This document shows, in pieces, positions 374-41,209 of a stretch of DNA of 41,290 nucleotides; position 1 is the stretch's first letter; each line of letters starts with the position of its first letter. This stretch comes from a virus. The notes beneath the pieces are model-generated. The model saw nothing but the letters and a program-made list of their open reading frames with translations. It ran no database searches and was not told where the DNA came from. The stretch lies in the UHGV virus genome UHGV-0387525. One strand, written 5' to 3'. The translations under genes and the position numbers were made by a program.

Positions 374-388
374 TTACCTATGAGGTGC
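374..388. promoter_or_regulatory. variant operator site TTACC-TATGA-GGTGC
   Basis: left half matches the repeated palindrome, right half degenerate; in divergent promoter region 307-460. Confidence 0.35.
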
Positions 389-390
389 AT

Positions 391-405
391 TTACCTGTTG
401 GGTAA
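391..405. promoter_or_regulatory. operator-like palindrome TTACC-N5-GGTAA
   Basis: ttacctgttgggtaa; between divergent genes 76..306 and 461..1045. Confidence 0.6.
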
Positions 406-460
406 TATTGCTTTAAATTGAATCATCTACTGATTCATATATGAGGCGATTTTCCAGAAA

Positions 461-1045
461 ATGAAAAGTATCCAGGACGTCCGCAGGCAAAATCTCAACG
501 ACTTGATCGACCGTGAATTCAATGGTGTTCAGACGCGGATGGCAGAAAAACTTGGAACTCAGGCAAATCTGGTAAACCGCTGGGCTCTTGGCAAGAAGGT
601 TATCGGCGACCAGGTTGCACGAAAAATTGAAGCGGCCGCCAATAAACCCCGTAACTGGCTTGATATTGATCGTTCGCTTTCTCAGGAGGGTTTTCAGCCT
701 GTCGGCCCGAGCGATATAGGTCAGCTGGCGGCTCACAACCTGGAACGCTGGATGAGCGAAAGCCGCGACCTTTCAACACAGGGAAAACTTCACCGCGCAT
801 CCGGCGTCGCCCAGGTGACAATCAGCCGCCTGTTAAACAATGAGGTCAGCGTTTCCATTTCCACCCTGGAGAATGTTGCATCCGCATTCGGGCGTCACGG
901 ATATGAACTACTGATTCACCCGCACGACCCTGCGACTATCAACTATGACCGCTCACGCTACGCATTGTTACCCGAAACCGAGAAAGCAAAGATCGAAAGT
1001 TACATTGAATTTGTCATCAACCAGAACGAAAAAAGCAAACAATAA
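461..1045 (+). CDS. tandem-HTH transcriptional regulator; candidate non-cleavable immunity repressor
   Basis: 194 aa with two XRE-like HTH segments (RMAEKLGTQANLVNRWALGKK and ASGVAQVTISRLLNNEVSVSI); no S24 peptidase-like motif seen; monocistronic, followed by intrinsic terminator; weak RBS. Confidence 0.5.
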   Translation: MKSIQDVRRQNLNDLIDREFNGVQTRMAEKLGTQANLVNRWALGKKVIGDQVARKIEAAANKPRNWLDIDRSLSQEGFQPVGPSDIGQLAAHNLERWMSESRDLSTQGKLHRASGVAQVTISRLLNNEVSVSISTLENVASAFGRHGYELLIHPHDPATINYDRSRYALLPETEKAKIESYIEFVINQNEKSKQ

Positions 1046-1066
1046 AACTATAGTTTTCAGTAAGTA

Positions 1067-1090
1067 AGCCGCCTCATGGCGGCTTTTTTA
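1067..1090 (+). terminator. rho-independent terminator
   Basis: stem agccgcc/ggcggct, loop tcat, then TTTTT. Confidence 0.7.
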
Positions 1091-1102
1091 TTGCCAGATA
1101 GA

Positions 1103-1117
1103 TTACCTTACGGGTAA
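1103..1117. promoter_or_regulatory. operator-like palindrome TTACC-N5-GGTAA
   Basis: ttaccttacgggtaa; preceded by TTGCCA -35-like hexamer at 1091-1096. Confidence 0.6.
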
Positions 1118-1164
1118 TTTTTTTAACTCATATCTATTGACACCAAACCAAATAAGCATAATTA

Positions 1165-1179
1165 TTACCCCAACGGTAA
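1165..1179. promoter_or_regulatory. operator-like palindrome TTACC-N5-GGTAA at a promoter
   Basis: ttaccccaacggtaa; TTGACA at 1137-1142 upstream; site overlaps the predicted -10/+1. Confidence 0.6.
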
Positions 1180-1198
1180 CAGACCGAGGTAACAAGTT

Positions 1199-1351
1199 AT
1201 GCAGTGGAAAATCATCAACGGTTGGTACTGCGTTACTGCATGCGGATTCATGAGCTGGAAGTTCCGCACCTTACAGGAAGGCATTAAGTGGGCTTTCGTC
1301 AGCAAAGAAGCTCGCGATGTAGCCAACGATAACGAGATATGGGAGGGCTGA
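1199..1351 (+). CDS. small hypothetical protein (50 aa), not in the supplied ORF track
   Basis: ATG at 1199 with GAGG 8-9 nt upstream; TGA at 1349-1351 overlaps RBS of next gene. Confidence 0.3.
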   Translation: MQWKIINGWYCVTACGFMSWKFRTLQEGIKWAFVSKEARDVANDNEIWEG

Positions 1352-1353
1352 TA

Positions 1354-1653
1354 ATGAACGTTAATCAGCAGAAAAATCTTCAAAAAATCATGCTGGCATT
1401 CGACAAGGACTACCGCCTGTCAGAACAGCTATATGACCGACAAGTTGAACTGATTGAGAGCATCCGACTTCATCAACTGTCCTCAACTTTCGACGTTGTA
1501 ACAGGCAAAGGCGTTCGTCAGGAAGTGCTGGAGGCTGCTAAAGACAGCCCTGAGTTCGAAGAACTGATGGATGCCTACCGGCGCGAGGCAATGGCAATTA
1601 TAGCGCGCTGGGATCTGGCGGATCAGCTTGATGGGCAGAGGGACGCGGCATGA
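1354..1653 (+). CDS. hypothetical early protein
   Basis: ORF with GGGAGGG RBS 7 nt before ATG 1354; stop overlaps next start (ATGATG). Confidence 0.5.
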   Translation: MNVNQQKNLQKIMLAFDKDYRLSEQLYDRQVELIESIRLHQLSSTFDVVTGKGVRQEVLEAAKDSPEFEELMDAYRREAMAIIARWDLADQLDGQRDAA

Positions 1654-2549: not shown

Positions 2550-2558
2550 GGAGAAAAA

Positions 2559-3581: not shown

Positions 3582-3630
3582 CCACCACCGCGGCGCCACG
3601 TGCGCCGCACTGCAACCAAGAGAGGTATTC

Positions 3631-5587: not shown

Positions 5588-5589
5588 AA

Positions 5590-6846
5590 TTATTTATTAC
5601 TGTCTTCCATCCACTTCTCAAACTTCGACGGGGAGAACGGAATCAGATCCGTATGCTCCCCGTTAATCCAGGAATCAATCATATCGGCCCACTGCTGCAA
5701 CATGTAGGCGCGCTGTCTGGCGTATTCCGCTTTGTTATATACGGCGCGCACACCTTTCTGCTCGTGTGCCAGAGCCTTTTCAATCCAGTCTGAAGGATAA
5801 CCAGCCTCATGCAACAATGTACTGGCTGTACGGCGCATATCATGTACAGTAAAATCCTGAATATGCTCACCATCTTCATTTATTATTTTCACCGTTCTGT
5901 CGATCAGAGAGTTCAGCGCGGCATTAGATAATGGCTTCCGGAAATTGTAACGACCAGGAACCAGATATTCACTTCCACCAGCGCACATCTGCAACCCGAC
6001 TAATATATCCTGTGCCTGTTTAGGCAGGTAAATAACGTGCGCCCGACTTCCCTTCATGCGGTCTGAAGGAATTGTCCATGTCCATTTTTTAAAATCTATT
6101 TCATCCCACGTTGCATTGGTGAATTCTCCCTTACGAACCATGGTGATAAGCACCAGCTTTAAAGCCATTTTCATAGTGCCCATAGCACCAATGGCATCCA
6201 GCGTGCGGAAGAACAGGCCAATTTCTTCTGGTGTCAGTGTTCGCTCTCGTGGTTTAAATATGGCGATAGACGAAGGTTTAATGTCAGCCGCAGGATTAAA
6301 CAAACCATGACCACGGTCATTGGCGTGACGGTATACGCTGCTGATGATCTCCCTGGCCTGTACTGCTGTTGCCCGACCACCGCGTTCGACAATCCGGTCA
6401 CACAAATCACGAACCATTGATGTGGTAATTTCAGCCATCATTTTGTTGCCAAGAACCGGAAGTATGTCACGGTCGATCACCGCCTGCTTCATTGCGCGGG
6501 TACTGTCAGCCAGGATGACGTGTTTCATATAACTGTCGGTATGTACCGCAAACGTCTCGGCACCACGAATCTTTTTAATACCGTCACGTTTAGCCGCAGC
6601 CGGTGACTGGCCTGCTTTAAGCAGCTTCTTTGCAGCAATCAGTTCTTCTCGCGCTTCTGCCAGGCTGATACCGTCACGCCCATACTGCCCGATTACCAGT
6701 GTTTCGCGGCGACCGTTGATACGGTAGTCATAGCGAAACGAGACCGTGCCTGACGTAAGCACAGCTACATACAGCCCGTCACGATCGGAGACCTTGTACA
6801 GTTTGTCCTGCGGCTTGAGGTTTTTTAATTTTGTATCGGTAAGCAC
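5590..6846 (-). CDS. int: tyrosine-type phage integrase
   Basis: 418 aa; C-terminal catalytic region with HDMRRT and LAH...VRAVY motifs (R-H-R-Y pattern). Confidence 0.9.
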   Translation of the reverse strand: MLTDTKLKNLKPQDKLYKVSDRDGLYVAVLTSGTVSFRYDYRINGRRETLVIGQYGRDGISLAEAREELIAAKKLLKAGQSPAAAKRDGIKKIRGAETFAVHTDSYMKHVILADSTRAMKQAVIDRDILPVLGNKMMAEITTSMVRDLCDRIVERGGRATAVQAREIISSVYRHANDRGHGLFNPAADIKPSSIAIFKPRERTLTPEEIGLFFRTLDAIGAMGTMKMALKLVLITMVRKGEFTNATWDEIDFKKWTWTIPSDRMKGSRAHVIYLPKQAQDILVGLQMCAGGSEYLVPGRYNFRKPLSNAALNSLIDRTVKIINEDGEHIQDFTVHDMRRTASTLLHEAGYPSDWIEKALAHEQKGVRAVYNKAEYARQRAYMLQQWADMIDSWINGEHTDLIPFSPSKFEKWMEDSNK

Positions 6847-6888
6847 AATTCACCCGTATAGAAACCATTTTCATGACGGTATGAGAGT

Positions 6889-6903
6889 ATACCTTTAAGG
6901 TAA
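6889..6903. promoter_or_regulatory. operator-like palindrome ATACC-N5-GGTAA upstream of int
   Basis: atacctttaaggtaa; flanked by inverted copies of ATACCGTCA. Confidence 0.5.
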
Positions 6904-6957
6904 TACCGTCACCTGTACCGACGAAAAATATGGTGTAGAGTGAATAGAAATGAATAC

Positions 6958-8962: not shown

Positions 8963-9242
8963 ACTTTCTCCTGTTTACTATCTATAAGCCAGTCAATTAT
9001 TGATGACTAAACCCGCATAGTAAACCATATATGAATCATTATTGTTCCATATCATATATCTCAATAAAAGTACTAATGATTTTACAGAACGAGCCAGCAG
9101 AGTGGGGGCAGTTGTACAGGAACCATAGACTTAATTTTGTATTTAATAATGCTATGGTGTAATAAACCTGAACATGTATTTAAAATACGTACTGATTCAT
9201 GATAGAATTCAAAGATAACTTTTCACCAACTCCGTTTTTGAT

Positions 9243-9270
9243 GCCCGCAATATTTTGCGGGCTTTTTTTT
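9243..9270 (+). terminator. plus-strand intrinsic terminator abutting the tailspike stop
   Basis: stem gcccgcaa/ttgcgggc, loop tatt, then eight T on plus strand. Confidence 0.55.
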
Positions 9271-12388: not shown

Positions 12389-12492
12389 GTTAAATCTCCA
12401 GATAGTCGCAGCACCCGTTGCGCCGCATATCTGGTTATTCTATTACCTAAAAAACCATATATGGATAAAAAGACTATAAATACCAATAGATA

Positions 12493-12507
12493 TTACCTTT
12501 CGGGTAA
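12493..12507. promoter_or_regulatory. operator-like palindrome TTACC-N5-GGTAA
   Basis: ttacctttcgggtaa upstream of gene 12584..12841. Confidence 0.6.
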
Positions 12508-12544
12508 TTTGCAAAACGTGCTGGATAGCAAACAAATTATTTGT

Positions 12545-12564
12545 TACTGTATAAACATACAGTT
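12545..12564. promoter_or_regulatory. LexA (SOS) box
   Basis: TACTGTATAAACATACAGTT: CTGT-N8-ACAG, 17/20 match to TACTGTATATATATACAGTA. Confidence 0.7.
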
Positions 12565-12583
12565 ATTGCATGGAGAAGATAAG

Positions 12584-12841
12584 ATGCAGCAGTATCACTA
12601 TCCACTGGAAGACGGATTTACCGAAAGGATTCACACGCCGGGAGGCGTCAGGTCACTGGTGGAGGGATCGCACTTGATGAAATTACTCCGGGATCTCGAT
12701 AAGGATGGATTTAATGTCGATGGCCCACTTGCCGAACTGACTGCACTGATTAACTACGTCACCAGCTCACAGATGTCTATGCAGGATCTGCAAACACATC
12801 TCGACTATTGTGCCGAACAATTACGAAAACAAACCCGGTAA
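12584..12841 (+). CDS. small antirepressor-like protein (Tum-like), paralogous to C-terminus of Ant
   Basis: 85 aa; GGAGAAG RBS before ATG 12584; LMKLLRDLDKDGFNVDGPLAELTAL...MQDLQTHLDY aligns by eye with LMNLLNQLQEDGHDVSGAAAELTTM...LRDIQTHAEY at the end of 13990..14685. Confidence 0.55.
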   Translation: MQQYHYPLEDGFTERIHTPGGVRSLVEGSHLMKLLRDLDKDGFNVDGPLAELTALINYVTSSQMSMQDLQTHLDYCAEQLRKQTR

Positions 12842-12847: not shown

Positions 12848-12865
12848 AGGCCGCAAGAGCGGCCT
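12848..12865. terminator. bidirectional hairpin between convergent genes
   Basis: stem aggccgc/gcggcct, loop aaga; T-rich on both sides. Confidence 0.45.
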
Positions 12866-13592
12866 ATCGTTTCGCTTTGTGCTCGTCCCAGCACGTTTTG
12901 CACCATGCCATTAAGCCGTCCGCATTTTGATTATTAGGGTAAAAGCTGGTCCGTTTTCTGCGGACATTACAAATTGGGCACCACTTCATATGGCGTGTAT
13001 TCTTTGGGCCATCGAGACACCTTGCACACCACTTAGTCAATCCATCTGGATTTTTTGACGATTTCCGGAATTTGTCATATGGAAGGTTTATTCTGCATCG
13101 CAAACACTGCTTGCGGCCACTTGAAACTCTGTTAGCTGATTCTTCTTTTGGCGGCGATACAGAAGGTATTCTTGCTGGCTCTGATACTGCCTGAGGTGCT
13201 TTATTAGATGACTGAGACGATATGTCATCACCAGGGAATCTTCCATGATATGCCGGACGCGTTGACACTCCAGGTGGAAGCTCAGCTGTAAACGGCTTTG
13301 GCTGAATCAGTTGCCTCTCTTTTGCTAACTCCTGCTGTTTATAATATGTCTGGATTACCGCACTATCATAAGCAGGAGGTGCGGAAATATTAGGCGCATT
13401 ACCTCCAGTTTTTTGAAACTGAGTAGAGGTGTGTTCTATCACCTGTGTACGATTAATCGTTATCTCCCCATCTTCGGTCTTTATCGTTTTGTTATGATTA
13501 ACGACCGTACGATCAGAGATCTTAGTCTTGTTCTGGTTGATAACGTAAATAATCACCGCAACCACACCAACAACTATCCAGAAAACTTCCAT
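12864..13592 (-). CDS. membrane-anchored protein with tandem Cys-rich (zinc-ribbon-like) repeats
   Basis: 242 aa; N-terminal TM helix; two copies of C..C..N.DGL..WC..C pattern near C-terminus. Confidence 0.45.
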   Translation of the reverse strand: MEVFWIVVGVVAVIIYVINQNKTKISDRTVVNHNKTIKTEDGEITINRTQVIEHTSTQFQKTGGNAPNISAPPAYDSAVIQTYYKQQELAKERQLIQPKPFTAELPPGVSTRPAYHGRFPGDDISSQSSNKAPQAVSEPARIPSVSPPKEESANRVSSGRKQCLRCRINLPYDKFRKSSKNPDGLTKWCARCLDGPKNTRHMKWCPICNVRRKRTSFYPNNQNADGLMAWCKTCWDEHKAKR

Positions 13593-13612
13593 TGCTTTTC
13601 CTCACAATAACA

Positions 13613-13627
13613 TTACCTTAAAGGTAA
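13613..13627. promoter_or_regulatory. operator-like palindrome TTACC-N5-GGTAA
   Basis: ttaccttaaaggtaa, 21 bp upstream of the minus-strand start at 13592. Confidence 0.6.
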
Positions 13628-13705
13628 TATCTTGCTTTCAGGTGATCAAGCGTTAAACGCAATCAACCAAATACGGTTGATTTTAATATTTCTTCGCGTT
13701 TATCA

Positions 13706-13720
13706 TTACCTTTGCGGTAA
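13706..13720. promoter_or_regulatory. operator-like palindrome overlapping promoter -10
   Basis: ttacctttgcggtaa; TTGATT (13677-13682), 18-nt spacer, TATCAT (13701-13706). Confidence 0.6.
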
Positions 13721-13989
13721 ATTTACATCGCACTCCTCTTGTGCCATAGTAATCGGGCACTGGCAAAATCCAGTGCCGGGATTGGCGTCCCGGATTACTA
13801 AAAGGCGCATTCACCGCGCAAGCGGTTTTTTTATGCGTATAGCACGGCCACATTCGTATTATGGTGGGCTGTGTGGGGGCACCGAAAGGTGCGCCGGGTC
13901 CTTTTAGCCGGTTACGCCAACCCTGCACAGTTCACCACCAACCGATTGGCGTCGGTAGTGGTGATTAACCAGACTAAAAGGTAACCACT
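13721..13989 (+). ncRNA. candidate structured leader / small RNA upstream of ant
   Basis: no credible ORF; hairpins at 13757-13778 and 13776-13793; terminator-like hairpin accgc-gcaa-gcggt + T7 at 13813-13832; decoy SD-like actaaaagg 13797-13805; anti-SD ccttttag 13900-13907. Confidence 0.35.
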
Positions 13990-14685
13990 ATGACAGCTAC
14001 AAAAAGCACGTCCATTTTTTCTTTCGAATCCCAAGCCGATATACGGGTAATCGTCATTAATGGTGAGCCATGGTTTATCGCTTCAGATGTTTGTCGGGCT
14101 ATAGGCATAGCAAACCATCGAGATGCTGTTCGAAAACTTGATGATGATGAGAAGGGCGTCGCTTCAACCGACACCCCTGGCGGTGAGCAAGAATCGATCA
14201 TCATCTCCGAGTCAGGCCTCTACACACTGATCCTCCGCTGCCGCGACGCAGTGACACCAGGCACTATCCCCTACCGCTTTCGCAAATGGGTTACAGGTGA
14301 GGTTCTTCCTCAGATCCGCCGCACCGGAAGTTACATTAAAAACTCGCTCCCGCAGGAAGAACGCATAAAGATGGTTGCCGACCAGGTAGCCAACGCCACA
14401 GCATCAGCAGTAATGCAGGCGATGAAGATAGAGAACAAAACCTACAGCGCCCCACTGAAGCCCGGCTACCGCAGCCTGATTCATTCTCCGTCTGGTGTTC
14501 TCGGCCTGACGGAGAACTCACTGCTGATGAATTTGCTGAACCAGTTGCAGGAAGACGGGCACGATGTATCGGGCGCGGCGGCGGAGCTGACAACCATGTT
14601 TTGCTACATCGTTGGTGTGAGTAAATGCCTGCGTGATATCCAGACTCACGCGGAGTACATCAACGACAAAGCAGGATTCTTCTGA
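13990..14685 (+). CDS. ant: antirepressor with N-terminal Bro-N domain
   Basis: 231 aa; Bro-N-like N-terminus (IRVIVINGEPWFIASDVCRAIGI...ESGLYTLILRCR); C-terminal segment paralogous to 12584..12841. Confidence 0.75.
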   Translation: MTATKSTSIFSFESQADIRVIVINGEPWFIASDVCRAIGIANHRDAVRKLDDDEKGVASTDTPGGEQESIIISESGLYTLILRCRDAVTPGTIPYRFRKWVTGEVLPQIRRTGSYIKNSLPQEERIKMVADQVANATASAVMQAMKIENKTYSAPLKPGYRSLIHSPSGVLGLTENSLLMNLLNQLQEDGHDVSGAAAELTTMFCYIVGVSKCLRDIQTHAEYINDKAGFF

Positions 14686-14757
14686 CGGGCGGCGGCACAG
14701 GGATGTGCCTTTAAATAATTCTGTACAGATTGCAGACCGGGGGTGAATAGCGTACTA

Positions 14758-14772
14758 TTACCTTAAAGGTAA
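14758..14772. promoter_or_regulatory. operator-like palindrome overlapping promoter
   Basis: ttaccttaaaggtaa; TTGCAG 14730-14735, 17-nt spacer, TACTAT 14753-14758. Confidence 0.6.
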
Positions 14773-14798
14773 ACCATGTGTTTACATGAGGAGGAGAT

Positions 14799-15008
14799 AT
14801 GGGATTTTGGTTCGCTCGTACAAAAACGAGGGATAATGCACCCAGCCCTCAGGCAAAAAATACAGAAGTTCCGGCGTCAGCGCAGGTTAACAAGCGTGGT
14901 GGTGTGTATATCTCATCACAGCAAATTTCTGAGCTTCCTGAGGTTAAGGAGATGCGTCGTCTCGCTGCTGCAATCGTTAAACAGGATCTTGCCACTGTAA
15001 GGAAATAG
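14799..15008 (+). CDS. small hypothetical protein
   Basis: 69 aa; GAGGAGG RBS before ATG 14799. Confidence 0.5.
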   Translation: MGFWFARTKTRDNAPSPQAKNTEVPASAQVNKRGGVYISSQQISELPEVKEMRRLAAAIVKQDLATVRK

Positions 15009-15871
15009 TGTTGTTAGCTCTTCTAATTATCCCCATTCTGGTTAGTGGTTATATTATGATAACCGCTAACCAGTATCATTATTTCCGTTTATACCGACAT
15101 GAAGGCCAGCTTCTTTATATGAAAGTAGCTGCATTAGGTACATATTGCCTTGTTGCTTCTGTAATAATTGCCACATTTATAAAATATAAATATCCTGATT
15201 TTCACCTAGTTCACGATATGGTGGAAACTTTTAATGTAACGTCAAAACCAGAAACAGATAGAATTTACATGTGGCTACTTCTTCTGTCAGTCACATCAAT
15301 TTGCTTCTCTTTGTGTTATGTATCTTTTGTTTGGCTAAAAGATCTTCTTTTAGGTTGTTTTTATAAACGTGATATTTATGACAAAATATCAGAGGCAATG
15401 AAAGCTAGGGTATTGCGAAAAACGTACTCCCAGGGTTCTTTAGATTTGCTATTGCTTGATGCAATCGAATCAGATCCTAAGAAACCAATGTTAATTACTT
15501 TATCATCAAATAAAGTATACGTTGGAATAATAAATGGTTCTGGTGAGCCAACGGAAAATCAAGGGCCACACCAACACATATCTTTTGTTCCTTTAATGTC
15601 AGGGTACAGAAACAAAGAAAATTTATCTGTTACATTTACAAACGCTTACCCAGGTGAAATCCAAATTAAGCGCAGTGCTGCGATAAAAGGGATAAGCAAA
15701 AAGAAAGTTCAAGGTCTAGAAATTATGGTATCTATAGACGAAATAAGTCATATATCATGGTTTGACTTTGAAGTATATAAGGCAACAAATAACAAAGTAG
15801 AAACAAAGGGTCATGTTGTTAATGTGACCAAAAATGGTCGCAACATATACTACAGAAGTGGCAGGAAATAA
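15008..15871 (+). CDS. polytopic membrane protein of unknown function (accessory gene)
   Basis: 287 aa; about three N-terminal TM helices then soluble domain; AT-rich; GTG start overlapping upstream stop, alternative ATG 15056. Confidence 0.5.
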   Translation: MLLALLIIPILVSGYIMITANQYHYFRLYRHEGQLLYMKVAALGTYCLVASVIIATFIKYKYPDFHLVHDMVETFNVTSKPETDRIYMWLLLLSVTSICFSLCYVSFVWLKDLLLGCFYKRDIYDKISEAMKARVLRKTYSQGSLDLLLLDAIESDPKKPMLITLSSNKVYVGIINGSGEPTENQGPHQHISFVPLMSGYRNKENLSVTFTNAYPGEIQIKRSAAIKGISKKKVQGLEIMVSIDEISHISWFDFEVYKATNNKVETKGHVVNVTKNGRNIYYRSGRK

Positions 15872-15895
15872 ATTTTACGCAGTTTAGGTGGCTTA

Positions 15896-16400
15896 TATGG
15901 ATAATACTATCTTAGGCGCATTGATAGGTGCTGTTATTGCTATAGTTTCCACTTATATAAATGCAGGACAAGGATACAAAAACAGCATAAGATTAGAGCG
16001 ACAAAAAATATTAAGGGATAAACGCGAGCAATTATTTATAAATTGTATACTTACTAAAAAAGTCATAGATTCAAGCACAATTACCATTCTCAATTTCGTA
16101 AAAAATGCCAGATACCACTCTGATAGTAAATTTGACGTATCAAGAGCGAATCCGTTGCAAACGATGGAAATGCTAATAAACATATACCTTCCTGAGTATA
16201 AAAAAGACTTACAAGAACTCAATAATGCGTATCAAGAATTTCACAAATACTACTCTCAATATACATGTGCACATACCTTCAAAAATATGCCTGATAATGA
16301 GAAGTCGAGGTTTATTGAGGAGGCTGATTTTTATGCAAAAAAGATATATGGCAAACTTAATGATATTAAGGACAAGATATCATTAAACTCAATAGTATAA
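15896..16400 (+). CDS. single-pass membrane protein of unknown function (accessory gene)
   Basis: N-terminal TM helix ILGALIGAVIAIVSTYI; AGGTGG RBS 5 nt before ATG 15896; AT-rich. Confidence 0.5.
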
Positions 16401-32397: not shown

Positions 32398-32487
32398 ATC
32401 AATGACTCCGTACGCAATTAAATTATTACCAATTTAACCACATATGATTTATTTATCGTAGGTGGTTGACATTTAACGCACAAATTA

Positions 32488-32502
32488 TTACCTTTCAGGT
32501 AA
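32488..32502. promoter_or_regulatory. operator-like palindrome with upstream TTGACA
   Basis: ttacctttcaggtaa; TTGACA at 32466-32471. Confidence 0.6.
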
Positions 32503-32824
32503 CAAAAGAGTTCATTCCGGTTACTAACCTGACTGGCTTGTCGTTAAATTGAACAGGTGGAGTGAGCTTTTATTTTGAGCAGTACGGCGTATGGCACATG
32601 CGCCGATAGCGGTCTGGATACGTTTAAGGGGCACCCTCCCTGGCTGTGGCAAACGAACCAGGTAGCCGGAATGTGCAAGTCGAGCGGTTTTATTCCGCGC
32701 ACGGGGATTCACCATCCCGGCGATTCGGTGTGACGCCTCGGAAGAGACGAGGGTACAACGATGAGAGCATTTATGGAGCCGCGACAAAGTGTGGCGCCTT
32801 AACAGGCTAAGTGCTCTCAGCGTT

Positions 32825-32901
32825 GTGGCATTAGCTCAGTTGGACAGAGCAACCGCCTTCTAAGCGGTTGGTCGCAGGTTCGAATCCTGCATGCCACGCC
32901 A
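32825..32901 (+). tRNA. tRNA-Arg (anticodon UCU)
   Basis: manual cloverleaf: acceptor GTGGCAT/ATGCCAC, D-arm GCTC/GAGC, anticodon stem ACCGC/GCGGT with loop CTTCTAA, T-arm GCAGG-TTCGAAT-CCTGC, discriminator G, encoded CCA. Confidence 0.9.
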
Positions 32902-33062
32902 GAATCACGCCTAAGGACCGTGATGCCAGAAGTTCCAGGTGCTTGGCGGTGATAGTTTCCCTTGAAGGACTATCACCGCCCTTTTTACAGCAGGACGCCA
33001 TTGCGATGACTTCATGCTGTAAACCCGTACAGCCACGGAAGGCATAACTCATTGCTTCCAGT

Positions 33063-33088
33063 TCGCCCGGTTCGCCGGGCATTTTTTA
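33063..33088 (+). terminator. rho-independent terminator downstream of tRNA
   Basis: stem gcccgg/ccgggc, loop ttcg, then six T. Confidence 0.7.
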
Positions 33089-33098: not shown

Positions 33099-33518
33099 AT
33101 GAAGACAATTGATATGTTGGCTAAGTATCTAAATGAATGGCCATTAAAATATTCTCGTATCGTTCAGGCTGAAGACTGCATTTTTTATGGCGTTTTTGCT
33201 GGTAATGAAATGCATTACGAAGTAATTCAGAGTGAGGGACTGGCCGGGTTAACTCTTAGCGAAGACCATGGTACTAGCGTTACGTTCCATGACTGGATAA
33301 CAGCACAACGTTCTGAAATGGAAAAAGGCGATGTTTTTGATATTTCTCGCGCTGTTTACGCTAAAGCAAAAAGTGATAATGATTACATGAGCGAACACTT
33401 ATACAACATGAAGTTACAATGCCTGCATGCGGCGCTTATTCAGAATGGGCACTTCGATAAAACAAGTGCCATCAATATTGCGGAAGCCATCAACGCTGGA
33501 TTTAATGCCATTAAGTAA
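33099..33518 (+). CDS. hypothetical accessory protein
   Basis: 139 aa; AAGGTGA RBS before ATG 33099; opposite strand to flanking structural genes. Confidence 0.5.
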   Translation: MKTIDMLAKYLNEWPLKYSRIVQAEDCIFYGVFAGNEMHYEVIQSEGLAGLTLSEDHGTSVTFHDWITAQRSEMEKGDVFDISRAVYAKAKSDNDYMSEHLYNMKLQCLHAALIQNGHFDKTSAINIAEAINAGFNAIK

Positions 33519-35084: not shown

Positions 35085-35677
35085 TGATTACCATCCTGAC
35101 GTTCTTTGAGTCGCTTCCTGGCTGCTGCTATGCGATCAGCAATTGTCACATTCACATTAACATCCAGGCGTTCTTTGAATGCGTTGACGTCGACGTGCTT
35201 ACCAATCAGTTCGAGGTTCTTCACCTTGTCAGGCCATTTAATTTTTTTGAGGATTGTCTCTATCGAATCCTCGTTCATGTTCATGATGGTCGATGACAGA
35301 TCAAAGCCGCTAAGCGTAGTGCGCCAGATTTTCGGCCACTCGCGGATTGGCTTAAGGCTCCCATCGTCGTTGAGGATGTCGATCACGTCCATCTGGTCGA
35401 TCTCCACCAGGCGCATGAGAACGTAATCAGCACTGACGCGCATTCGTTTGTTGCGCTCCTCCATCAACTCGGCAATCCGTTTCTGAATGCGTTCATCGCG
35501 CATCATGACACTGGCTTTAACTGCCGCTGTATTTGGGGAGAATCCTGCGTTAATCGCAGCCTGAGTCTGATTTTCAGGCGTTTTGATGTATGACTGGCAA
35601 TAAGCCTCCTGCATTGCTGTTAGTGGCTTAAATTGCGTTGATTTGCGTTTATAGGTTTTAGGTTCAGCAGGCATCAT
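35081..35677 (-). CDS. terminase small subunit
   Basis: start moved to MMPAEP (ATG 35677, GGTGG RBS); AAINAGFSPNTAAVKASVMMRDERIQKRI resembles small-terminase DNA-binding region; overlaps terL start. Confidence 0.65.
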   Translation of the reverse strand: MMPAEPKTYKRKSTQFKPLTAMQEAYCQSYIKTPENQTQAAINAGFSPNTAAVKASVMMRDERIQKRIAELMEERNKRMRVSADYVLMRLVEIDQMDVIDILNDDGSLKPIREWPKIWRTTLSGFDLSSTIMNMNEDSIETILKKIKWPDKVKNLELIGKHVDVNAFKERLDVNVNVTIADRIAAARKRLKERQDGNQ

Positions 35678-35684
35678 AACCACC

Positions 35685-35716
35685 GTGGTAATAGTTACCG
35701 TTGTGGTAATAGTACC
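35685..35716. promoter_or_regulatory. two direct repeats GTGGTAATAGT(T)ACC upstream of terS
   Basis: 35685-35699 and 35703-35716; contain GGTAA..TTACC half-sites in reversed order. Confidence 0.4.
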
Positions 35717-35751: not shown

Positions 35752-35964
35752 TCAAAGTCCATCAAATTCATCGTAAAAACTCTCGTCAAGATACCCTTTC
35801 CATTTACCGCGAATGAAAATTACATCCTCGCCGCAAGGGTGCTGACTGTCGATAACTATATCCCTCCTGGCGCAACCATACTTATGCATGAGAAATTTAA
35901 CCTCTTTCGGAAAATTAGCTGAGTTATCTCTCATATCTTCAAGGTCGTAGCGTATTTTTGGCAT
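35752..35964 (-). CDS. small hypothetical protein
   Basis: 70 aa from ATG 35964 with AAGGTG RBS. Confidence 0.4.
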   Translation of the reverse strand: MPKIRYDLEDMRDNSANFPKEVKFLMHKYGCARRDIVIDSQHPCGEDVIFIRGKWKGYLDESFYDEFDGL

Positions 35965-35973: not shown

Positions 35974-35985
35974 GTGACATGTCAC
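35974..35985. repeat. 12-bp palindrome GTGACATGTCAC (copy 2)
   Basis: identical to 33523-33534; between genes 35982..36323 and 35752..35964. Confidence 0.6.
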
Positions 35986-36323
35986 ACTATTAATTTCGTT
36001 TCATGCCAGCCTTTGGTCACCCAGCATTGCGAGTCACCATTACACGGGCATGAATTAACTGGAACTCTCTCGCCGCACTTACCGCAACGTTTTCTGCTGA
36101 TCGATTTTATACGCCCGCGCACCCGGGCATCATCCTGGCGGATCAGCAGCGCGATGTACTCGGCCATTTCATAGGGATCTCGACCAGGGCGCCGGGCGGC
36201 GCAGTTCCGCTCCAGCATTTCAATTTCCTGAGCATCAAGCACAATCTCCAGCTTACGCACACCAGATGCAGCTTGTCTGGCTCTCTGAGCGGCTTTGCGC
36301 TCTGCTGCTGATTTAGCCATCAA
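35982..36323 (-). CDS. basic protein with C-terminal Cys cluster (possible zinc-binding regulator)
   Basis: 113 aa; CGKCGERVPVNSCPCNGDSQC; upstream of packaging genes. Confidence 0.4.
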   Translation of the reverse strand: MMAKSAAERKAAQRARQAASGVRKLEIVLDAQEIEMLERNCAARRPGRDPYEMAEYIALLIRQDDARVRGRIKSISRKRCGKCGERVPVNSCPCNGDSQCWVTKGWHETKLIV

Positions 36324-37749: not shown

Positions 37750-37750
37750 A

Positions 37751-38784: not shown

Positions 38785-38845
38785 CTTTACCCTCGCTTAT
38801 CCACATAACTTATTGATTACATTGATAACTAAAAAGATCGTCGAT

Positions 38846-39190
38846 TTAGAACTCTTCGATGTTCCAGCCACCACCTGCTTTCTTTGGCTTAACCGTTACC
38901 CCGATGATTCGGAACGGATACTGATCTGCGGCGACTTTGGTTTTCACCCTGGCGTCGTCGGTCCAGAAACCTTTCACTTCGTGCAGTTCCATCTCGCCGG
39001 TGGCGAGCATCACAGCGAAATCTGGCGTATAAAACGTGTTATCAGCTAACCGCAGCTTGATACCCTCGAACCGATACCAGGCGATTTCCCCTGCACGTTT
39101 ACGCTGCTCAAGGTGCTGGCAATACGCAGATTCTGTTTTGTTCATCTGGCCTGTTTTGAGTCGACCAAGAGCCTGTATCTGTTTTCTCAT
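38846..39190 (-). CDS. DUF1064-like small nuclease-fold protein
   Basis: 114 aa; YTPDFAV...ELHEVKG pattern. Confidence 0.45.
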   Translation of the reverse strand: MRKQIQALGRLKTGQMNKTESAYCQHLEQRKRAGEIAWYRFEGIKLRLADNTFYTPDFAVMLATGEMELHEVKGFWTDDARVKTKVAADQYPFRIIGVTVKPKKAGGGWNIEEF

Positions 39191-39193
39191 GAT

Positions 39194-39208
39194 TTACCCC
39201 TGAGGTAA
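39194..39208. promoter_or_regulatory. operator-like palindrome overlapping start region of gene 38846..39190
   Basis: ttacccctgaggtaa directly upstream of the minus-strand ATG. Confidence 0.6.
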
Positions 39209-39255
39209 TTAAAAACCACATAAGACACTAAATCAATAGATTTTAGAATATTTTA

Positions 39256-39270
39256 TTACCCAGTAGGTAA
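39256..39270. promoter_or_regulatory. operator-like palindrome
   Basis: ttacccagtaggtaa; on minus strand upstream of TTGATT-N17-TTTAAT promoter-like element. Confidence 0.6.
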
Positions 39271-39282
39271 TCATCGAGACGT

Positions 39283-39302
39283 AAAAAAATGCGCTATCGC
39301 GC
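39283..39302 (-). terminator. weak terminator-like hairpin after P-like gene
   Basis: stem gcgc/gcgc with tetraloop; on minus strand followed by A-TTTTTTT; only 4-bp stem. Confidence 0.3.
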
Positions 39303-39307
39303 TGGTA

Positions 39308-40090
39308 TTACTTGATAAATCCTGCCGCCTTTCCCCGCCTGTATTCCTCCATCAGCCACTGCGCCGGTGTTATTCCCCCAAGGGTGGCGGCGTTAGGCAT
39401 GCACCCGAAACTTCGCCCTGGTGGATGGTAAACGTCTCTCCCTGTGTCCGGAGGTGTACTCATGGGTTCTGGCTTTGCCTGTATGCTGATCACCGGATCG
39501 GGTATCTGCTGTCCGGAAGCCACCTTTTTCGCCCAATCATCGAGCAGCCTGCGCGCGTGTTTCTCAACCTCAATCTCGCTAAGCTGGCGCTGATACATTG
39601 CACGGCGGGTATCACATACGACCCAGTACATAACCGGATGTCGCCACGGGAATCTTTCGGGACCACCAGGATATAAACTTTTTTCCTTGCTGTACCGGTG
39701 AAACTCCGCCATCACATCGTCAATGGTGACGCCAAGAACCATCTTGCTGTCTTTGCACCACTTGATGAATTGCCCAGGCGACGGCCAGAACGGAGATTCA
39801 CTGGCGCGGGCGTGGCGCATACCAGCGTTAACCTGTTCCATTGTTGTGATCCCATTCTCCAGAAACGCAAGCATCCATTGTTTTCGAAATTCGTTTAGCT
39901 TTCCTTGCTCGCTGATAGCAGCGATGCTGCCTGGAAATGCAGCCTGTAACTGGACAAACATTTCGTTGAAAATTCTTGCAACCTGCTCCTTCTTTGCCCT
40001 TTCATCGTCAGCAGAAGCAACCGCCGTCGAGTGGTCATGCCCACCACGAAAGCGATCGTACTCATTAAGAAGTTCTGGAGTTGATTTCAT
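39308..40090 (-). CDS. replication protein P-like helicase loader
   Basis: RKQWMLAFLENGITTMEQVNAGMRHAR...PSPGQFIKWC closely matches lambda P as recalled; start at ATG 40090 with GAGGTG RBS. Confidence 0.85.
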   Translation of the reverse strand: MKSTPELLNEYDRFRGGHDHSTAVASADDERAKKEQVARIFNEMFVQLQAAFPGSIAAISEQGKLNEFRKQWMLAFLENGITTMEQVNAGMRHARASESPFWPSPGQFIKWCKDSKMVLGVTIDDVMAEFHRYSKEKSLYPGGPERFPWRHPVMYWVVCDTRRAMYQRQLSEIEVEKHARRLLDDWAKKVASGQQIPDPVISIQAKPEPMSTPPDTGRDVYHPPGRSFGCMPNAATLGGITPAQWLMEEYRRGKAAGFIK

Positions 40091-40898
40091 CCCACACCTC
40101 ATCTATCCAGTCAGTGTTATGCCAGTCAAGGCTCTTTCTGACTTCACCTGATTTCTGTCTACAGAACTGGATGCGCCTTGCCAGCTTCTGCTCCCACTGT
40201 GCCTGATGGTATGCCTTACCCTCAGCCATCCAGTAAATTCTGAACTCTGCAAGTTCCTGTGCCGTTGGCAGACTGTCCAGGTAGATTCCCTGCAATGAGC
40301 TTTTCCGAAGAAAGTCATCTGATGGCTGCCATTGTTCATGCATGACAAATTTACCTAATTGCCCTGGCCCACCAGGAGGAACAAAGTTATTCATCACGGC
40401 GTTGTTTGCGACGGGGTCATGAGGCACAGAATCCCCGGTTTTTGTCCTGCTCTCCCTCTCTTGGTTAAATGACTGGTTATATGACTGGTTCTGGATCCCG
40501 TTTTTGGGATCATTCAACATCCCGTTTTTGGGATCATTCAACATCCCGTTTTTGGGTATATTCCCGTTTTCGGTAACATTACCGTTTTCGGGTTCATTGC
40601 CCCCCTCCCGGTTGCCTTTAATGTTCCCGTTTTTGGTTATATTAAGAGAGAAAACCCGCACTCTTTTTGTCGCTCCCTTTCTCTCTCCGGTATCTGAAAT
40701 AAGCCCCATTTTCATGAGCGATATAAGCCCGGCCTGCACGGTTTTTTTATTCAGGCAAGTGTCTTTAACGAGGCGTTCTATGCTGGGGTAGCAGAGGTTA
40801 TATTCATCGGCTCTGTCAGCCATCGAGAGCAGTATGAGCTTTAATGATGAGCTACCTGGATCTGTCTCCCAGGCCCAATCTGTTGCATGTCTGCTCAT
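40065..40898 (-). CDS. replication initiator, lambda-O-like, with internal ori iterons
   Basis: upstream of and overlapping P-like gene; repetitive peptide region (NGNI/NGML NDPK) coincides with nucleotide iterons. Confidence 0.6.
   Translation of the reverse strand: MSRHATDWAWETDPGSSSLKLILLSMADRADEYNLCYPSIERLVKDTCLNKKTVQAGLISLMKMGLISDTGERKGATKRVRVFSLNITKNGNIKGNREGGNEPENGNVTENGNIPKNGMLNDPKNGMLNDPKNGIQNQSYNQSFNQERESRTKTGDSVPHDPVANNAVMNNFVPPGGPGQLGKFVMHEQWQPSDDFLRKSSLQGIYLDSLPTAQELAEFRIYWMAEGKAYHQAQWEQKLARRIQFCRQKSGEVRKSLDWHNTDWIDEVWDEINSRTS
40471..40650. repeat. origin-like iteron array inside O-like gene
   Basis: gactggtt x2, then about seven copies of CCCGTTTT(T)GG at 18-24-bp spacing (two perfect 24-bp tandem copies at 40495-40542). 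Confidence 0.65.
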
Positions 40899-40913
40899 GA
40901 TTAATCTCCGCTA

Positions 40914-41114
40914 TCAGCTTGAGTGTTGTGGGGAGGAATTAATCATGATCTGCTTAATCTCTGCCCTGATGCGACGGTTTGACTCCATGGTGCACTCAAC
41001 ACAGTGTCCGTTGTAAACCCAGCGTTCACTGTCATGTCCGTGCTTACATGGTTTTCCGGTGTAGTAGCGTTTAAGTCCGCGCTTTGCGGCATCAATACGT
41101 GTAATGATTTCCAT
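40914..41114 (-). CDS. small Cys/His-rich protein in cII position
   Basis: 66 aa from ATG 41114; KPCKHGH...HCVEC. Confidence 0.4.
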   Translation of the reverse strand: MEIITRIDAAKRGLKRYYTGKPCKHGHDSERWVYNGHCVECTMESNRRIRAEIKQIMINSSPQHSS

Positions 41115-41194
41115 GGTAAGCCCTGTTATTAGTATTGGGATTACGGTTATTTTGTGCTGACACAAAAAAAAGATCAACCAGATTTGGTTTTTTA

Positions 41195-41209
41195 TTACCT
41201 TTGAGGTAC
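41195..41209. promoter_or_regulatory. operator-like palindrome TTACC-N5-GGTAC
   Basis: ttacctttgaggtac between cro-like terminator and zinc-finger gene. Confidence 0.5.

What the first reader, a model, noticed from the sequence alone, without database searches (positions are those of the whole stretch)
374..41209. Genome-wide set of ATTACC-N5-GGTAAT palindromes at promoters
At least 12 intergenic copies of TTACC-N5-GGTAA (391, 1103, 1165, 6889, 12493, 13613, 13706, 14758, 32488, 39194, 39256, 41195, plus a half-degenerate copy at 374). A fixed 10-base palindrome is expected about 0.04 times in 41 kb, so the enrichment is far beyond chance, and I have not scanned coding regions exhaustively. 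Most copies extend to ATTACC...GGTAAT and abut a TAnnAT -10-like hexamer, often with a TTGACA-like -35 at 17-18 bp. The sites precede the repressor candidate, the early-left operon, int, both antirepressor genes, the accessory genes, the tRNA, the nin/late arm and the cII-position gene, and the units are separated by intrinsic terminators. This looks like one regulator controlling many operons, in the manner of P1 C1 operators or mycobacteriophage stoperators, rather than a lambda-style OL/OR pair. I do not recognise the motif as a described operator; it loosely resembles the MqsA palindrome (ACCT-N3-AGGT). Candidate binders are the tandem-HTH protein 461..1045 or the Cro-like protein 76..306.
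Basis: seen in the sequence. Interest (0 to 1): 0.85.

Follow-up and report, generated by a model that had tools for sequence, protein, structure and literature searches.

The report
Known epsilon15-type phage repressor operators
The repeated ATTACC-N5-GGTAAT palindromes are real and far beyond chance, but they are the already-annotated binding sites of the main lysogeny repressor of epsilon15/phiV10-like phages, so this is a correct rediscovery, not a new regulator.

Summary
TTACC-N5-GGTAA occurs 11 times exactly (0 in 100 shuffles). All 12 copies of the 17-mer with at most 1 mismatch lie in the 7.7% of the window that is non-coding (0.016 expected). None lies in 38 kb of coding DNA.

The window is a phiV10/epsilon15-like podovirus (Uetakevirus), 97-99% identical to published E. 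coli phages. The epsilon15 GenBank record already annotates seven ATTACC-N5-GGTAAT sites as "repressor" binding sites, at matching genome positions.

The protein at 461..1045 is a homologue of the crystallised SPC32H repressor Rep (PDB 5D50_A, E 3.5e-42). The window also encodes Rep's small antirepressor Ant (12584..12841; 5D50_E, E 2.7e-46), with a perfect LexA box 22 nt upstream.

The same motif occurs 8-12 times per genome in six relatives from Escherichia, Salmonella, Enterobacter and Klebsiella, and never in lambda.

Pairs spaced exactly 62 bp bracket a conserved sigma-70 promoter. Abutting 17/18-bp pairs and single sites guard the other transcription units.

Its claim that the operator is undescribed is wrong.

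Novelty: already known. Interest is low.

A second conserved motif (CATATRTGGTT, candidate late promoter) was noticed in passing.

The parts
461..1045 (+). Rep, the lysogeny repressor. N-terminal DNA-binding HTH domain (about residues 1-70) plus a C-terminal HTH_3-fold domain.
   Evidence: PDB 5D50_A (SPC32H repressor), E 3.5e-42 over residues 1-190. Pfam HTH_3 at 106-147 and no S24 peptidase domain. 99.5% identical to phiV10 gp40 and the ZX5 repressor, 43% to epsilon15 gp38.
76..306 (-). Cro-like small regulator (epsilon15 gp39 / phiV10 gp41 homologue), transcribed divergently from rep.
   Evidence: phrog_35 'transcriptional repressor', E 5.6e-13. 58-84% conserved across the genus. No PDB, Pfam or NCBIfam hit.
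342..358. Degenerate operator (3 mismatches), lying in the spacer of the cro-like gene's promoter (-35 TTGATT at 366-361 by my alignment; the scan's TTGTTA at 360-355 is an alternative).
   Evidence: A site at the matching position is present in all six relatives, following a conserved TTGATT.
373..389 (.). Half-degenerate operator (GTTACC / GGTGCA) abutting the 390 site, 17 bp centre to centre.
   Evidence: The corresponding site in epsilon15 and SPC32H is a good operator, also at 17-bp spacing.
390..406 (.). Operator (1 mismatch) between the rep and cro-like genes.
1102..1118 (.). Distal operator of the early-left promoter module (perfect 17-mer).
   Evidence: Its position matches the epsilon15 sites annotated 'repressor' at 32554/32616.
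1137..1165 (+). Early-left sigma-70 promoter: TTGACA, 17 nt, AATTAT. The last 2 nt of the -10 hexamer are the first 2 nt of the proximal operator.
   Evidence: Best promoter match in the scan, 10 of 12. The architecture is conserved in 14 modules from 7 genomes.
1164..1180 (.). Proximal operator of the early-left promoter, covering -10/+1; 62 bp from the distal site.
6888..6904 (.). Weaker operator-like site (2 mismatches), 50 nt upstream of int (5590..6846, - strand).
   Evidence: The same ATTACCYTAAAGGTATA-type site lies upstream of int in all 7 genomes.
12492..12508 (.). Perfect operator in the divergent ant / tail-fibre intergenic region.
   Evidence: Its position matches the epsilon15 annotated repressor site 19895-19911.
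12547..12562 (+). LexA box CTGTATAAACATACAG, 22 nt upstream of the ant start codon.
12584..12841 (+). Ant, the small antirepressor of Rep.
   Evidence: PDB 5D50_E 'Anti-repressor protein', E 2.7e-46. 85-aa ORF preceded by a GGAGAA Shine-Dalgarno sequence.
13612..13628 (.). Perfect operator, 19 nt upstream of orf242 (12864..13592, - strand).
13705..13721 (.). Operator (1 mismatch) heading the rightward unit that contains the Bro-N antirepressor-like gene 13990..14685.
   Evidence: A counterpart is present in phiV10 (20496) and Tyrion (21392).
14757..14773 (.). Operator (1 mismatch) immediately upstream of the accessory operon 14776..16400 (three ORFs of unknown function).
32487..32503 (.). Operator (1 mismatch) in the divergent region between gp3/portal (- strand) and tRNA-Arg/orf139 (+ strand).
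   Evidence: Its position matches the epsilon15 annotated repressor site 2931-2947.
35676..35692 (.). Operator (1 mismatch) ending 1 nt before the terS start codon. Forms an abutting pair with 35694 (18 bp).
35694..35710 (.).
   Evidence: Its position matches the epsilon15 annotated repressor site 12-27.
39193..39209 (.). Proximal operator of the nin-region promoter module, abutting the start codon of the DUF1064 gene (38846..39190, - strand).
39255..39271 (.). Distal operator of the nin-region module (perfect), 62 bp from 39193. The promoter between them on the - strand is TTGATT, 17 nt, TTTAAT.
   Evidence: Its position matches the epsilon15 annotated repressor site 35906-35922.
41194..41210 (.). 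Weaker operator-like site (2 mismatches) upstream of the gp40-like gene (40914..41114, - strand), just after the terminator at 41243-41224.
   Evidence: A site at the matching position is present in all relatives.

Best explanation
What it is. The palindromes are the operators of the phage's lysogeny repressor Rep (461..1045). This is the epsilon15 gp38 / SPC32H Rep family found in Uetakevirus podoviruses.

How recognition works (inferred). Two N-terminal HTH domains read the two ATTACC half-sites, whose centres are 11 bp apart (one helical turn).

Oligomeric state (taken from SPC32H). Rep works as a tetramer, so one tetramer can hold two operators.

Three site layouts in the window:
- Pairs spaced exactly 62 bp bracket a sigma-70 promoter. 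The distal operator lies upstream of the -35 element. The proximal operator overlaps -10/+1. Examples are the early-left operon (1102 + 1164) and the nin-region operon (39255 + 39193).
- Abutting 17/18-bp pairs occur at terS and in the rep/cro-like region.
- Single sites head the int, ant/tail-fibre, gp3/tRNA, gp40-like and accessory units.

Consequence in a lysogen (inferred). Rep occupies these sites and silences nearly every terminator-bounded transcription unit directly.

Induction (inferred from homology). DNA damage removes LexA from the box in front of ant. Ant then binds Rep's C-terminal domains and strips it from the DNA.

Status of each step:
- Shown here: motif enrichment, its restriction to intergenic DNA, matching genome positions with annotated epsilon15 repressor sites, the Rep and Ant homologies, the LexA box, and the conserved geometry.
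- Inferred: physical binding by this Rep variant, simultaneous binding of both sites of a 62-bp pair by one tetramer (looping or wrapping), and repression at the late and accessory units.
For: 1. Enrichment and exclusively intergenic location.
2. The window is a phiV10/epsilon15-like phage.
3. The epsilon15 records AY150271.2 and NC_004775.2 annotate seven 'protein_bind: repressor / lysogeny' features. Every one reads ATTACC-N5-GGTAAT, and they sit at the same positions as the window's sites: terS, gp3, ant/tail fibre, early-left and nin.
4. Rep matches PDB 5D50_A (E 3.5e-42) and Ant matches 5D50_E (E 2.7e-46).
5. Published descriptions read here state that SPC32H Rep binds palindromic DNA as a tetramer and is dismantled by a tetrameric Ant, and that its C-terminal domain is a tetramerisation domain of a fold linked to DNA looping in other regulators.
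6. A perfect LexA box lies 22 nt before ant.
7. The motif occurs 8-12 times (<=1 mismatch) in each of six relatives from four host genera, and never in lambda.
8. A 62-bp spacing is seen 13 times and a 17/18-bp spacing 8 times across 7 genomes. The 62-bp modules align as distal operator, 18 nt, TTGAC/TT, 17 nt, -10, proximal operator, while the sequence in between diverges.
9. The Rep N-terminal domain keeps an invariant ANLVNRW stretch although overall identity falls to 43%.
10. A Pseudomonas siphovirus CI shares only this N-terminal domain (39% identity, residues 4-68). It has the same ATTACC/GGTAAT half-sites, with N4 spacing, on both sides of its cI gene.
11. Over-expression of the 99.5%-identical ZX5 repressor abolished free phage and cut holin and endolysin mRNA by more than 99.9%.
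Against: - No binding data exist for this Rep variant, which is only 43% identical to the crystallised SPC32H Rep.
- The three primary papers could not be read here (Kropinski 2007; Kim & Ryu 2013; Kim et al. 2016). What they show about operators rests on the GenBank annotation, on citing papers and on my recollection.
- At several single sites no convincing overlapping sigma-70 promoter was found. At gp3 and tail fibre the best promoter-like element lies roughly 40-70 bp downstream of the operator, so simple occlusion is not established there.
- The Cro-like protein is as conserved as Rep's N-terminal domain, so sequence conservation alone cannot exclude it as a co-binder.
- The window lacks the operator that relatives carry upstream of the lysis cassette.
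Confidence: 0.9

Rival explanations
1. The palindromes are bound mainly by the small Cro-like protein (76..306) rather than by Rep. Rep would then recognise something else.
For: The protein matches phrog_35 'transcriptional repressor'. It is divergently placed next to rep, with three graded sites in between. It is highly conserved across the genus, as is the motif.
Against: - The epsilon15 depositors assigned the sites to the repressor gp38.
- A Pseudomonas CI that shares only Rep's N-terminal domain has the same half-sites around its own gene.
- Over-expressing the Rep homologue alone silences lytic genes.

Co-binding of a subset of sites by the Cro-like protein, as in lambda, remains plausible and is not a true rival.
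Confidence: 0.05
2. The palindromes act as RNA hairpins (terminators or processing sites), or are copies of a small mobile palindromic element, and are not protein operators.
For: They are perfect inverted repeats in intergenic DNA. The epsilon15 record annotates RNase III sites in some of the same regions.
Against: - The predicted hairpins are weak, -2.2 to -4.5 kcal/mol with 6-bp A/U-rich stems, and have no T-tract.
- The arms are invariant in sequence with no compensatory changes, while the loop varies.
- The sites lie upstream of promoters and genes, after separate GC-rich terminators.
- Spacing relative to the -35 and -10 elements is fixed.
Confidence: 0.02
3. The sites are targets of a host factor, for example an MqsA-like antitoxin that recognises ACCT-N3-AGGT, and not of a phage protein.
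For: Five of the 14 sites with at most 2 mismatches (13612, 14757, 32487, 6888, 41194), plus the degenerate 373 site, contain ACCT-N3-AGGT.
Against: - The conserved positions are TTACC/GGTAA. Positions 7 and 11 are variable.
- The motif tracks phage genomes that encode Rep's N-terminal domain across four host genera and into a Pseudomonas phage.
- The motif is absent from lambda.
Confidence: 0.02

Closest known systems
Salmonella phage epsilon15 repressor gp38 and its annotated binding sites (GenBank AY150271.2 / NC_004775.2; Kropinski et al. 2007, paper recalled but not readable here)
   Same: - The 17-bp consensus ATTACC-N5-GGTAAT is identical.
- The genome positions match: terS, gp3, ant/tail fibre, early-left and nin.
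- The two-domain repressor and the gene order are the same.
   Different: - Rep is only 43% identical; the window belongs to the phiV10 immunity type.
- The window has 2 rather than 3 early-left sites and lacks the lysis-cassette site.
- The window has extra sites in its own accessory region (13612, 13705, 14757).
- The epsilon15 record annotates 7 sites, whereas my scan finds 11 at <=1 mismatch plus conserved weaker ones upstream of int and gp40.
Salmonella phage SPC32H Rep-Ant switch (PDB 5D50, 5D4Z; Kim & Ryu 2013; Kim et al. 2016)
   Same: - Both Rep and Ant have homologues in the window.
- SPC32H carries 12 copies of the same motif at the same positions.
- Rep has no S24 autocleavage domain.
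- A LexA box lies in front of ant.
   Different: - The window's Rep C-terminal domain is divergent, while Ant is nearly identical over its length.
- Tetramer formation and stripping of Rep by Ant are not shown for this variant.
Phage P1 C1 repressor with many dispersed operators
   Same: One repressor with more than 10 operators scattered over the genome, guarding many separate transcription units, including late and accessory functions.
   Different: - From established knowledge, P1 operators are asymmetric 17-mers read by a C1 monomer, and C1 is an unrelated protein.
- Here the sites are palindromes read by paired HTH domains of a 5D50-type repressor.
Cluster A mycobacteriophage stoperators
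   Same: Many copies of one repressor site spread across the genome.
   Different: - From established knowledge, stoperators are asymmetric, oriented with transcription, and often lie inside operons where they block elongation.
- Here the sites are symmetric, and none of the 12 good sites lies in coding DNA.
Lambda CI/Cro with OL and OR
   Same: - Divergent repressor and cro-like genes with three graded sites between them (390, 373, 342).
- Paired sites at the early-left promoter.
- A Pseudomonas CI with the same N-terminal domain shows a pure OL/OR layout.
   Different: - Rep has no RecA-dependent S24 domain; induction runs through a LexA-controlled antirepressor.
- At least 9 further operator positions lie outside the immunity region.

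Membership tests
epsilon15/SPC32H-type Rep-operator-Ant immunity system (Uetakevirus) | Repressor homologous to SPC32H Rep / epsilon15 gp38: an N-terminal DNA-binding domain plus a C-terminal HTH_3-fold domain, with no S24 peptidase domain. | tested here: met
   5D50_A, E 3.5e-42 over residues 1-190. Pfam shows HTH_3 at 106-147 and no Peptidase_S24. Alignment with four family members.
epsilon15/SPC32H-type Rep-operator-Ant immunity system (Uetakevirus) | 17-bp operator ATTACC-N5-GGTAAT, as annotated for the epsilon15 repressor. | tested here: met
   4 perfect, 8 one-mismatch and 2 conserved two-mismatch intergenic copies. The epsilon15 annotated sites read the same.
epsilon15/SPC32H-type Rep-operator-Ant immunity system (Uetakevirus) | Operators at the same intergenic positions as in other members. 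| tested here: met
   The terS, gp3, ant/tail-fibre, early-left, rep/cro-like, nin, int and gp40 positions are shared with 6 relatives. The lysis-cassette site is missing here and in EC.W1-9.
epsilon15/SPC32H-type Rep-operator-Ant immunity system (Uetakevirus) | Small (about 86 aa) Ant antirepressor under LexA control. | tested here: met
   5D50_E, E 2.7e-46. CTGTATAAACATACAG lies 22 nt upstream of the start codon. Actual LexA regulation was not tested.
epsilon15/SPC32H-type Rep-operator-Ant immunity system (Uetakevirus) | Physical binding of tetrameric Rep to the operators, and release by Ant. | not testable with these tools
   Known for SPC32H only through citing papers and recollection. The primary papers are not held.
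P1 C1-type dispersed operator network | Asymmetric operator bound by a monomeric C1-family repressor. | tested here: not met
   The sites are symmetric palindromes. The repressor is a 5D50/HTH_3 protein.
P1 C1-type dispersed operator network | More than 10 operators dispersed over the genome at many transcription units. | tested here: met
   14 intergenic sites at 10 positions. This is a functional analogy only.
Mycobacteriophage cluster A stoperators | Asymmetric sites, oriented with transcription, commonly within operons. | tested here: not met
   The sites are palindromic, and 0 of 12 good sites lie in coding DNA.
Lambda-type OL/OR immunity region | Multiple graded operators between divergent repressor and cro genes and at the early-left promoter; CI with an S24 autocleavage domain. 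| tested here: inconclusive
   The operator layout is met (390/373/342 and 1102/1164). The S24 domain is absent. Binding by the Cro-like protein is untested.
MqsA operator palindrome (ACCT-N3-AGGT) | Conserved ACCT-N3-AGGT core recognised by MqsA. | tested here: not met
   Only 5 of the 14 sites with at most 2 mismatches (plus the degenerate 373 site) contain it. Positions 7 and 11 carry almost no information.

The most novel reading that the evidence does not exclude
Beyond what is annotated, Rep may act as a genome-wide direct silencer with a fixed architecture. Roughly 14-16 operators per genome would cover every terminator-bounded unit, including int, ant, the late head and terS units, and horizontally acquired accessory cassettes. 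A strictly conserved 62-bp promoter-sandwich pair would match the geometry of one tetramer. At the late operons, Rep would work together with a second, unannotated palindrome (CATATRTGGTT, 7 nt upstream of a -10-like hexamer), which would be the target of a phage late activator. If this layered circuit has not been described, it would be a compact example of direct global repression plus activator-dependent late promoters in a podovirus.
Probability: 0.3. Interest if true: 0.4.

Novelty: already known. Interest (0 to 1): 0.15.

Why it matters
It matters little as a discovery. The operator consensus, the repressor and the antirepressor mechanism are already in the public record for epsilon15 and SPC32H, and the window is 97-99% identical to sequenced phiV10-like phages.

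The value lies in annotation. phiV10-type records carry no operator features, and this census gives them:
- 14 intergenic sites at 10 positions;
- the conserved 62-bp and 17/18-bp geometries;
- the LexA box in front of ant.

The census also shows that a repressor only 43% identical to the studied one keeps the same half-site. That bears on predicting cross-immunity among O157-typing phages and related prophages.

Tried and rejected
- Primary papers. I tried to read Kropinski 2007, Kim & Ryu 2013 and Kim et al. 2016 by PMID, PMC id and DOI. None is held. A full-text search for the motif letters found nothing relevant.
- Cro-like protein 76..306. A PDB search found no hit. Pfam and NCBIfam found none. 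Only phrog_35 matched.
- RNA-hairpin reading. Rejected: the hairpins are weak and there is no covariation.
- MqsA resemblance. Rejected as incidental.
- Alternative spacings. N3, N4, N6 and N7 versions of the palindrome are absent from the window.
- Accessory genes downstream of 13612 and 14757. I tested them for defence-system membership and found no PADLOC hits. They belong to PHROGs of unknown function, apart from a zinc-ribbon/endonuclease-VII-like C-terminus in orf242.
- Origin of the accessory cassette. I checked whether it travels with its operator. The region is a mosaic among E. coli Uetakevirus prophages, and I did not resolve this.
- Promoter assignment at single sites. I could not assign sigma-70 promoters to the single sites (gp3, tail fibre, orf242, accessory operon) with any confidence.

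Full report
**Observation.** The pattern TTACC-N5-GGTAA occurs 11 times exactly in the 41,290-bp window, and 0 times in 100 dinucleotide-preserving shuffles. The full 17-mer ATTACC-N5-GGTAAT with up to 2 mismatches occurs 17 times against 1.23 expected. Sites 6889 and 41195 each carry one core mismatch.

I built a gene map from ORFs supported by tblastn against three annotated relatives. On that map, all 12 sites with at most 1 mismatch lie in the 3,193 bp (7.7%) of non-coding DNA. Shuffling only the non-coding DNA 1000 times gives 0.016 such sites on average. The 38.3 kb of coding DNA has none at <=1 mismatch and three at 2 mismatches, which is about chance.

**What the window is.** Megablast identifies a phiV10/epsilon15-like temperate podovirus (genus Uetakevirus). 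It is 97-99% identical over most of its length to Escherichia phages EC.W1-9, vB_EcoP_ZX5, phiV10 and TL-2011b, and about 81% identical to Salmonella phage epsilon15. The window is a circularly permuted assembly. Bases 41236-41290 repeat 47-101, and bases 1-46 are an inverted copy of 47-92, which is an end artefact.

**The motif is already annotated.** The epsilon15 records (NC_004775.2 and the depositors' AY150271.2) carry seven 'protein_bind' features labelled 'repressor / lysogeny'. Extracting them shows that every one is ATTACC-N5-GGTAAT. They lie upstream of terS, upstream of gp3, between gp19 and the tail-fibre gene, three between rep and the early-left operon, and one in the nin region. 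The window's sites occupy the same positions.

My recollection is that this operator consensus comes from Kropinski et al. 2007 (Virology 369:234), and that the Rep-Ant switch was worked out in the epsilon15-like phage SPC32H (Kim & Ryu 2013, J Virol; Kim et al. 2016, PNAS). None of these three papers is held in the library, so this part is marked as recollection. Two citing papers that I could read describe SPC32H Rep. It binds palindromic DNA as a tetramer, with the DNA-binding domain pairs drawn from different dimers. A tetrameric Ant dismantles it. Its C-terminal domain is a tetramerisation domain of a fold linked to DNA looping in other regulators.

**The proteins.**
- The ORF 461..1045 (194 aa) matches the SPC32H repressor chain 5D50_A at E 3.5e-42 over residues 1-190. 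It has an HTH_3 domain at 106-147 and no S24 peptidase domain. It is 99.5% identical to the repressors of phiV10 and ZX5 but only 43% identical to those of epsilon15 and SPC32H.
- The last 85 codons of the ORF 12461..12841 match the SPC32H antirepressor chain 5D50_E at E 2.7e-46. The real gene is 12584..12841, preceded by a GGAGAA ribosome-binding site. The perfect LexA box CTGTATAAACATACAG lies at 12547-12562, 22 nt upstream.
- The small protein 76..306 has no solved relative. It matches phrog_35 'transcriptional repressor' and is 58-84% conserved across the genus. It is a reasonable Cro analogue.
- For the 99.5%-identical ZX5 repressor, over-expression abolished free phage and cut holin and endolysin transcripts by more than 99.9%.

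**Site census and geometry.** The window has 14 intergenic sites with at most 2 mismatches, plus two degenerate ones, at ten positions:

| Position | Sites | Notes |
|---|---|---|
| rep / cro-like | 390, 373, 342 | spacings 17 and 31 bp |
| early-left | 1102, 1164 | 62-bp pair |
| int | 6888 | 2 mismatches |
| ant / tail fibre | 12492 | perfect |
| orf242 | 13612 | perfect |
| Bro-N unit | 13705 | 1 mismatch |
| accessory operon | 14757 | 1 mismatch |
| gp3 / tRNA-Arg | 32487 | 1 mismatch |
| terS | 35676, 35694 | 18-bp pair |
| nin region | 39193, 39255 | 62-bp pair |
| gp40-like gene | 41194 | 2 mismatches |

Across the window and six relatives (epsilon15, SPC32H, phiV10, EC.W1-9, Enterobacter phage Tyrion, Klebsiella phage BUCT711), the motif occurs 8-12 times per genome at <=1 mismatch. 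It never occurs in lambda, even at 2 mismatches. Neighbouring sites are spaced exactly 62 bp in 13 cases and 17/18 bp in 8 cases.

Aligning the fourteen 62-bp modules gives one architecture: distal operator, 18 nt, TTGAC/TT (-35), 17 nt, a -10 hexamer whose last two bases are the first two of the proximal operator. The intervening sequence diverges between genera. In the window the early-left example (TTGACA-17-AATTAT, 1137-1165) is also the best promoter match in the consensus scan. The weaker int and gp40 sites are conserved in all seven genomes, so they are probably functional low-affinity sites. Strong terminators sit just before several operator-promoter units: 1066-1085, 6992-6969, 35746-35729 and 41243-41224.

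**Which domain reads the site.** The arms TTACC/GGTAA are nearly invariant. The outermost base is A/T in 75% of sites. The 5-bp spacer carries almost no information, apart from an A/T preference at its centre.

The Rep N-terminal domain keeps an invariant ANLVNRW stretch across proteins that are otherwise 43% identical. The only hit outside the genus is the CI of Pseudomonas phage PseuP_224, which shares just residues 4-68 (39% identity) and otherwise carries an S24-type C-terminus. That genome has ATTACC-N4-GGTAAT sites only on the two sides of its cI gene: 10905 and 10931; and 11767, 11782 and 11806. So the half-site goes with the N-terminal domain. The dispersal to ten or more positions is a feature of the Uetakevirus lineage.

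**Mechanism.** The enrichment, location, homologies and geometry are shown here. The following steps are inferred:
- Paired N-terminal domains read the two half-sites one helical turn apart.
- A tetramer can occupy the two operators of a 62-bp pair (about six turns) and hold the promoter between them. The proximal site blocks -10/+1.
- Abutting pairs and single sites repress the other units.
- After DNA damage LexA leaves the ant promoter, and Ant removes Rep.

At gp3 and tail fibre the operator lies roughly 40-70 bp upstream of the best promoter-like element, so the way repression works there is open.

- The binder assignment and the 'many operons, one repressor' idea are right.
- A lambda-like rep/cro core does exist.
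- The lytic-switch antirepressor is the small LexA-controlled Ant, not the large ORFs. Gene 13990..14685 is a Bro-N antirepressor-like protein. Its ZX5 homologue lowered prophage titre when over-expressed.
- The ORF 12864..13592 is not an antirepressor.
- The MqsA likeness is incidental.
- The tRNA claim holds. tRNA-Arg(tct) lies at 32825-32901 on the + strand, with its own terminator at 32945-32980.

**Rivals.**
- Sole binding by the Cro-like protein is unlikely given the epsilon15 assignment, the Pseudomonas N-terminal-domain comparison and the ZX5 experiment. Co-binding at the rep/cro region is plausible.
- An RNA-hairpin or mobile-element reading is rejected. The hairpins are weak (-2.2 to -4.5 kcal/mol), lack T-tracts and show no compensatory changes.
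- A host-factor reading has no support.

**Comparison and novelty.** The system is a member of the epsilon15/SPC32H Rep-operator-Ant family on every feature testable here. It works like P1 C1 or the mycobacteriophage stoperators only in having many dispersed sites, and it fails their defining features (asymmetric sites, unrelated repressors, sites inside operons).

The finding is therefore already known. My census adds unannotated sites, the conserved spacings and the extension to the phiV10 immunity type. These are increments.

**Limits.** There are no binding data for this Rep variant. The primary literature was not readable here. Promoters at the single sites remain unassigned.

Noticed in passing
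window 9023-9033, 12453-12463, 32436-32446 (all - strand); 1-mismatch copy at 39214-39224: A second conserved motif, CATATRTGGTT, often forms part of the palindrome AACCATATATGGTT. It lies upstream of the lysis cassette, the tail-fibre gene and gp3/portal. There are 6 copies at <=1 mismatch against 1.39 expected. The same motif sits at the same three late-operon positions in six relatives, followed 7 nt later by a -10-like hexamer and with no -35. It looks like an activator-dependent late promoter, by analogy with P1 Lpa-type late promoters. It is not annotated in the epsilon15 record. The candidate activator is the gp49-like regulator 35982..36323 (phrog_536).
   Followed up: partly
L009 (Pseudomonas phage PseuP_224) 10905-10946 and 11767-11821: A siphovirus CI shares only Rep's N-terminal 65 residues and has an S24-type C-terminus. 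It is flanked by ATTACC-N4-GGTAAT sites in a classical OL/OR layout. The half-sites are the same as in the window, with a spacer one base shorter.
   Followed up: partly
window 8963-9268: The Rep operator that epsilon15, SPC32H, phiV10 and Tyrion carry upstream of the lysis cassette is absent here and in EC.W1-9. Only the CATATATGGTT motif remains.
   Followed up: partly
window 1-101 and 41236-41290: The window ends look like an assembly artefact. Bases 41236-41290 are identical to 47-101, which indicates circular closure. Bases 1-46 are the reverse complement of 47-92, an inverted end duplication.
   Followed up: yes
window 32825-32901 (+): tRNA-Arg(tct), with its own terminator at 32945-32980. 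It overlaps the ORF 32831..33082 (- strand), which phiV10 and EC.W1-9 annotate as a hypothetical protein. That ORF is probably spurious.
   Followed up: partly
window 33017-33032: A second CTGT-N8-ACAG match (CTGTAAACCCGTACAG) lies 67 nt upstream of orf139 (33099..33518, + strand). It is a weak LexA-box candidate with a GC-rich centre and could be chance, since 0.48 matches are expected.
   Followed up: no
window 40462-40598: Iteron-like tandem repeats lie inside the DnaT-like replication gene 40065..40898. One array has a 24-bp unit in 2.6 perfectly matching copies, and adjacent arrays have 12- and 18-bp units. This is a candidate replication origin, like the lambda ori inside gene O.
   Followed up: no
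window 12864-16400: The accessory region differs between close relatives. It contains orf242 (zinc-ribbon / endonuclease-VII-like or Lar-like C-terminus), a Bro-N antirepressor-like gene and a three-gene operon of unknown function with no PADLOC hit. Each unit is headed by its own Rep operator. The cassette occurs in other E. coli prophages.
   Followed up: partly
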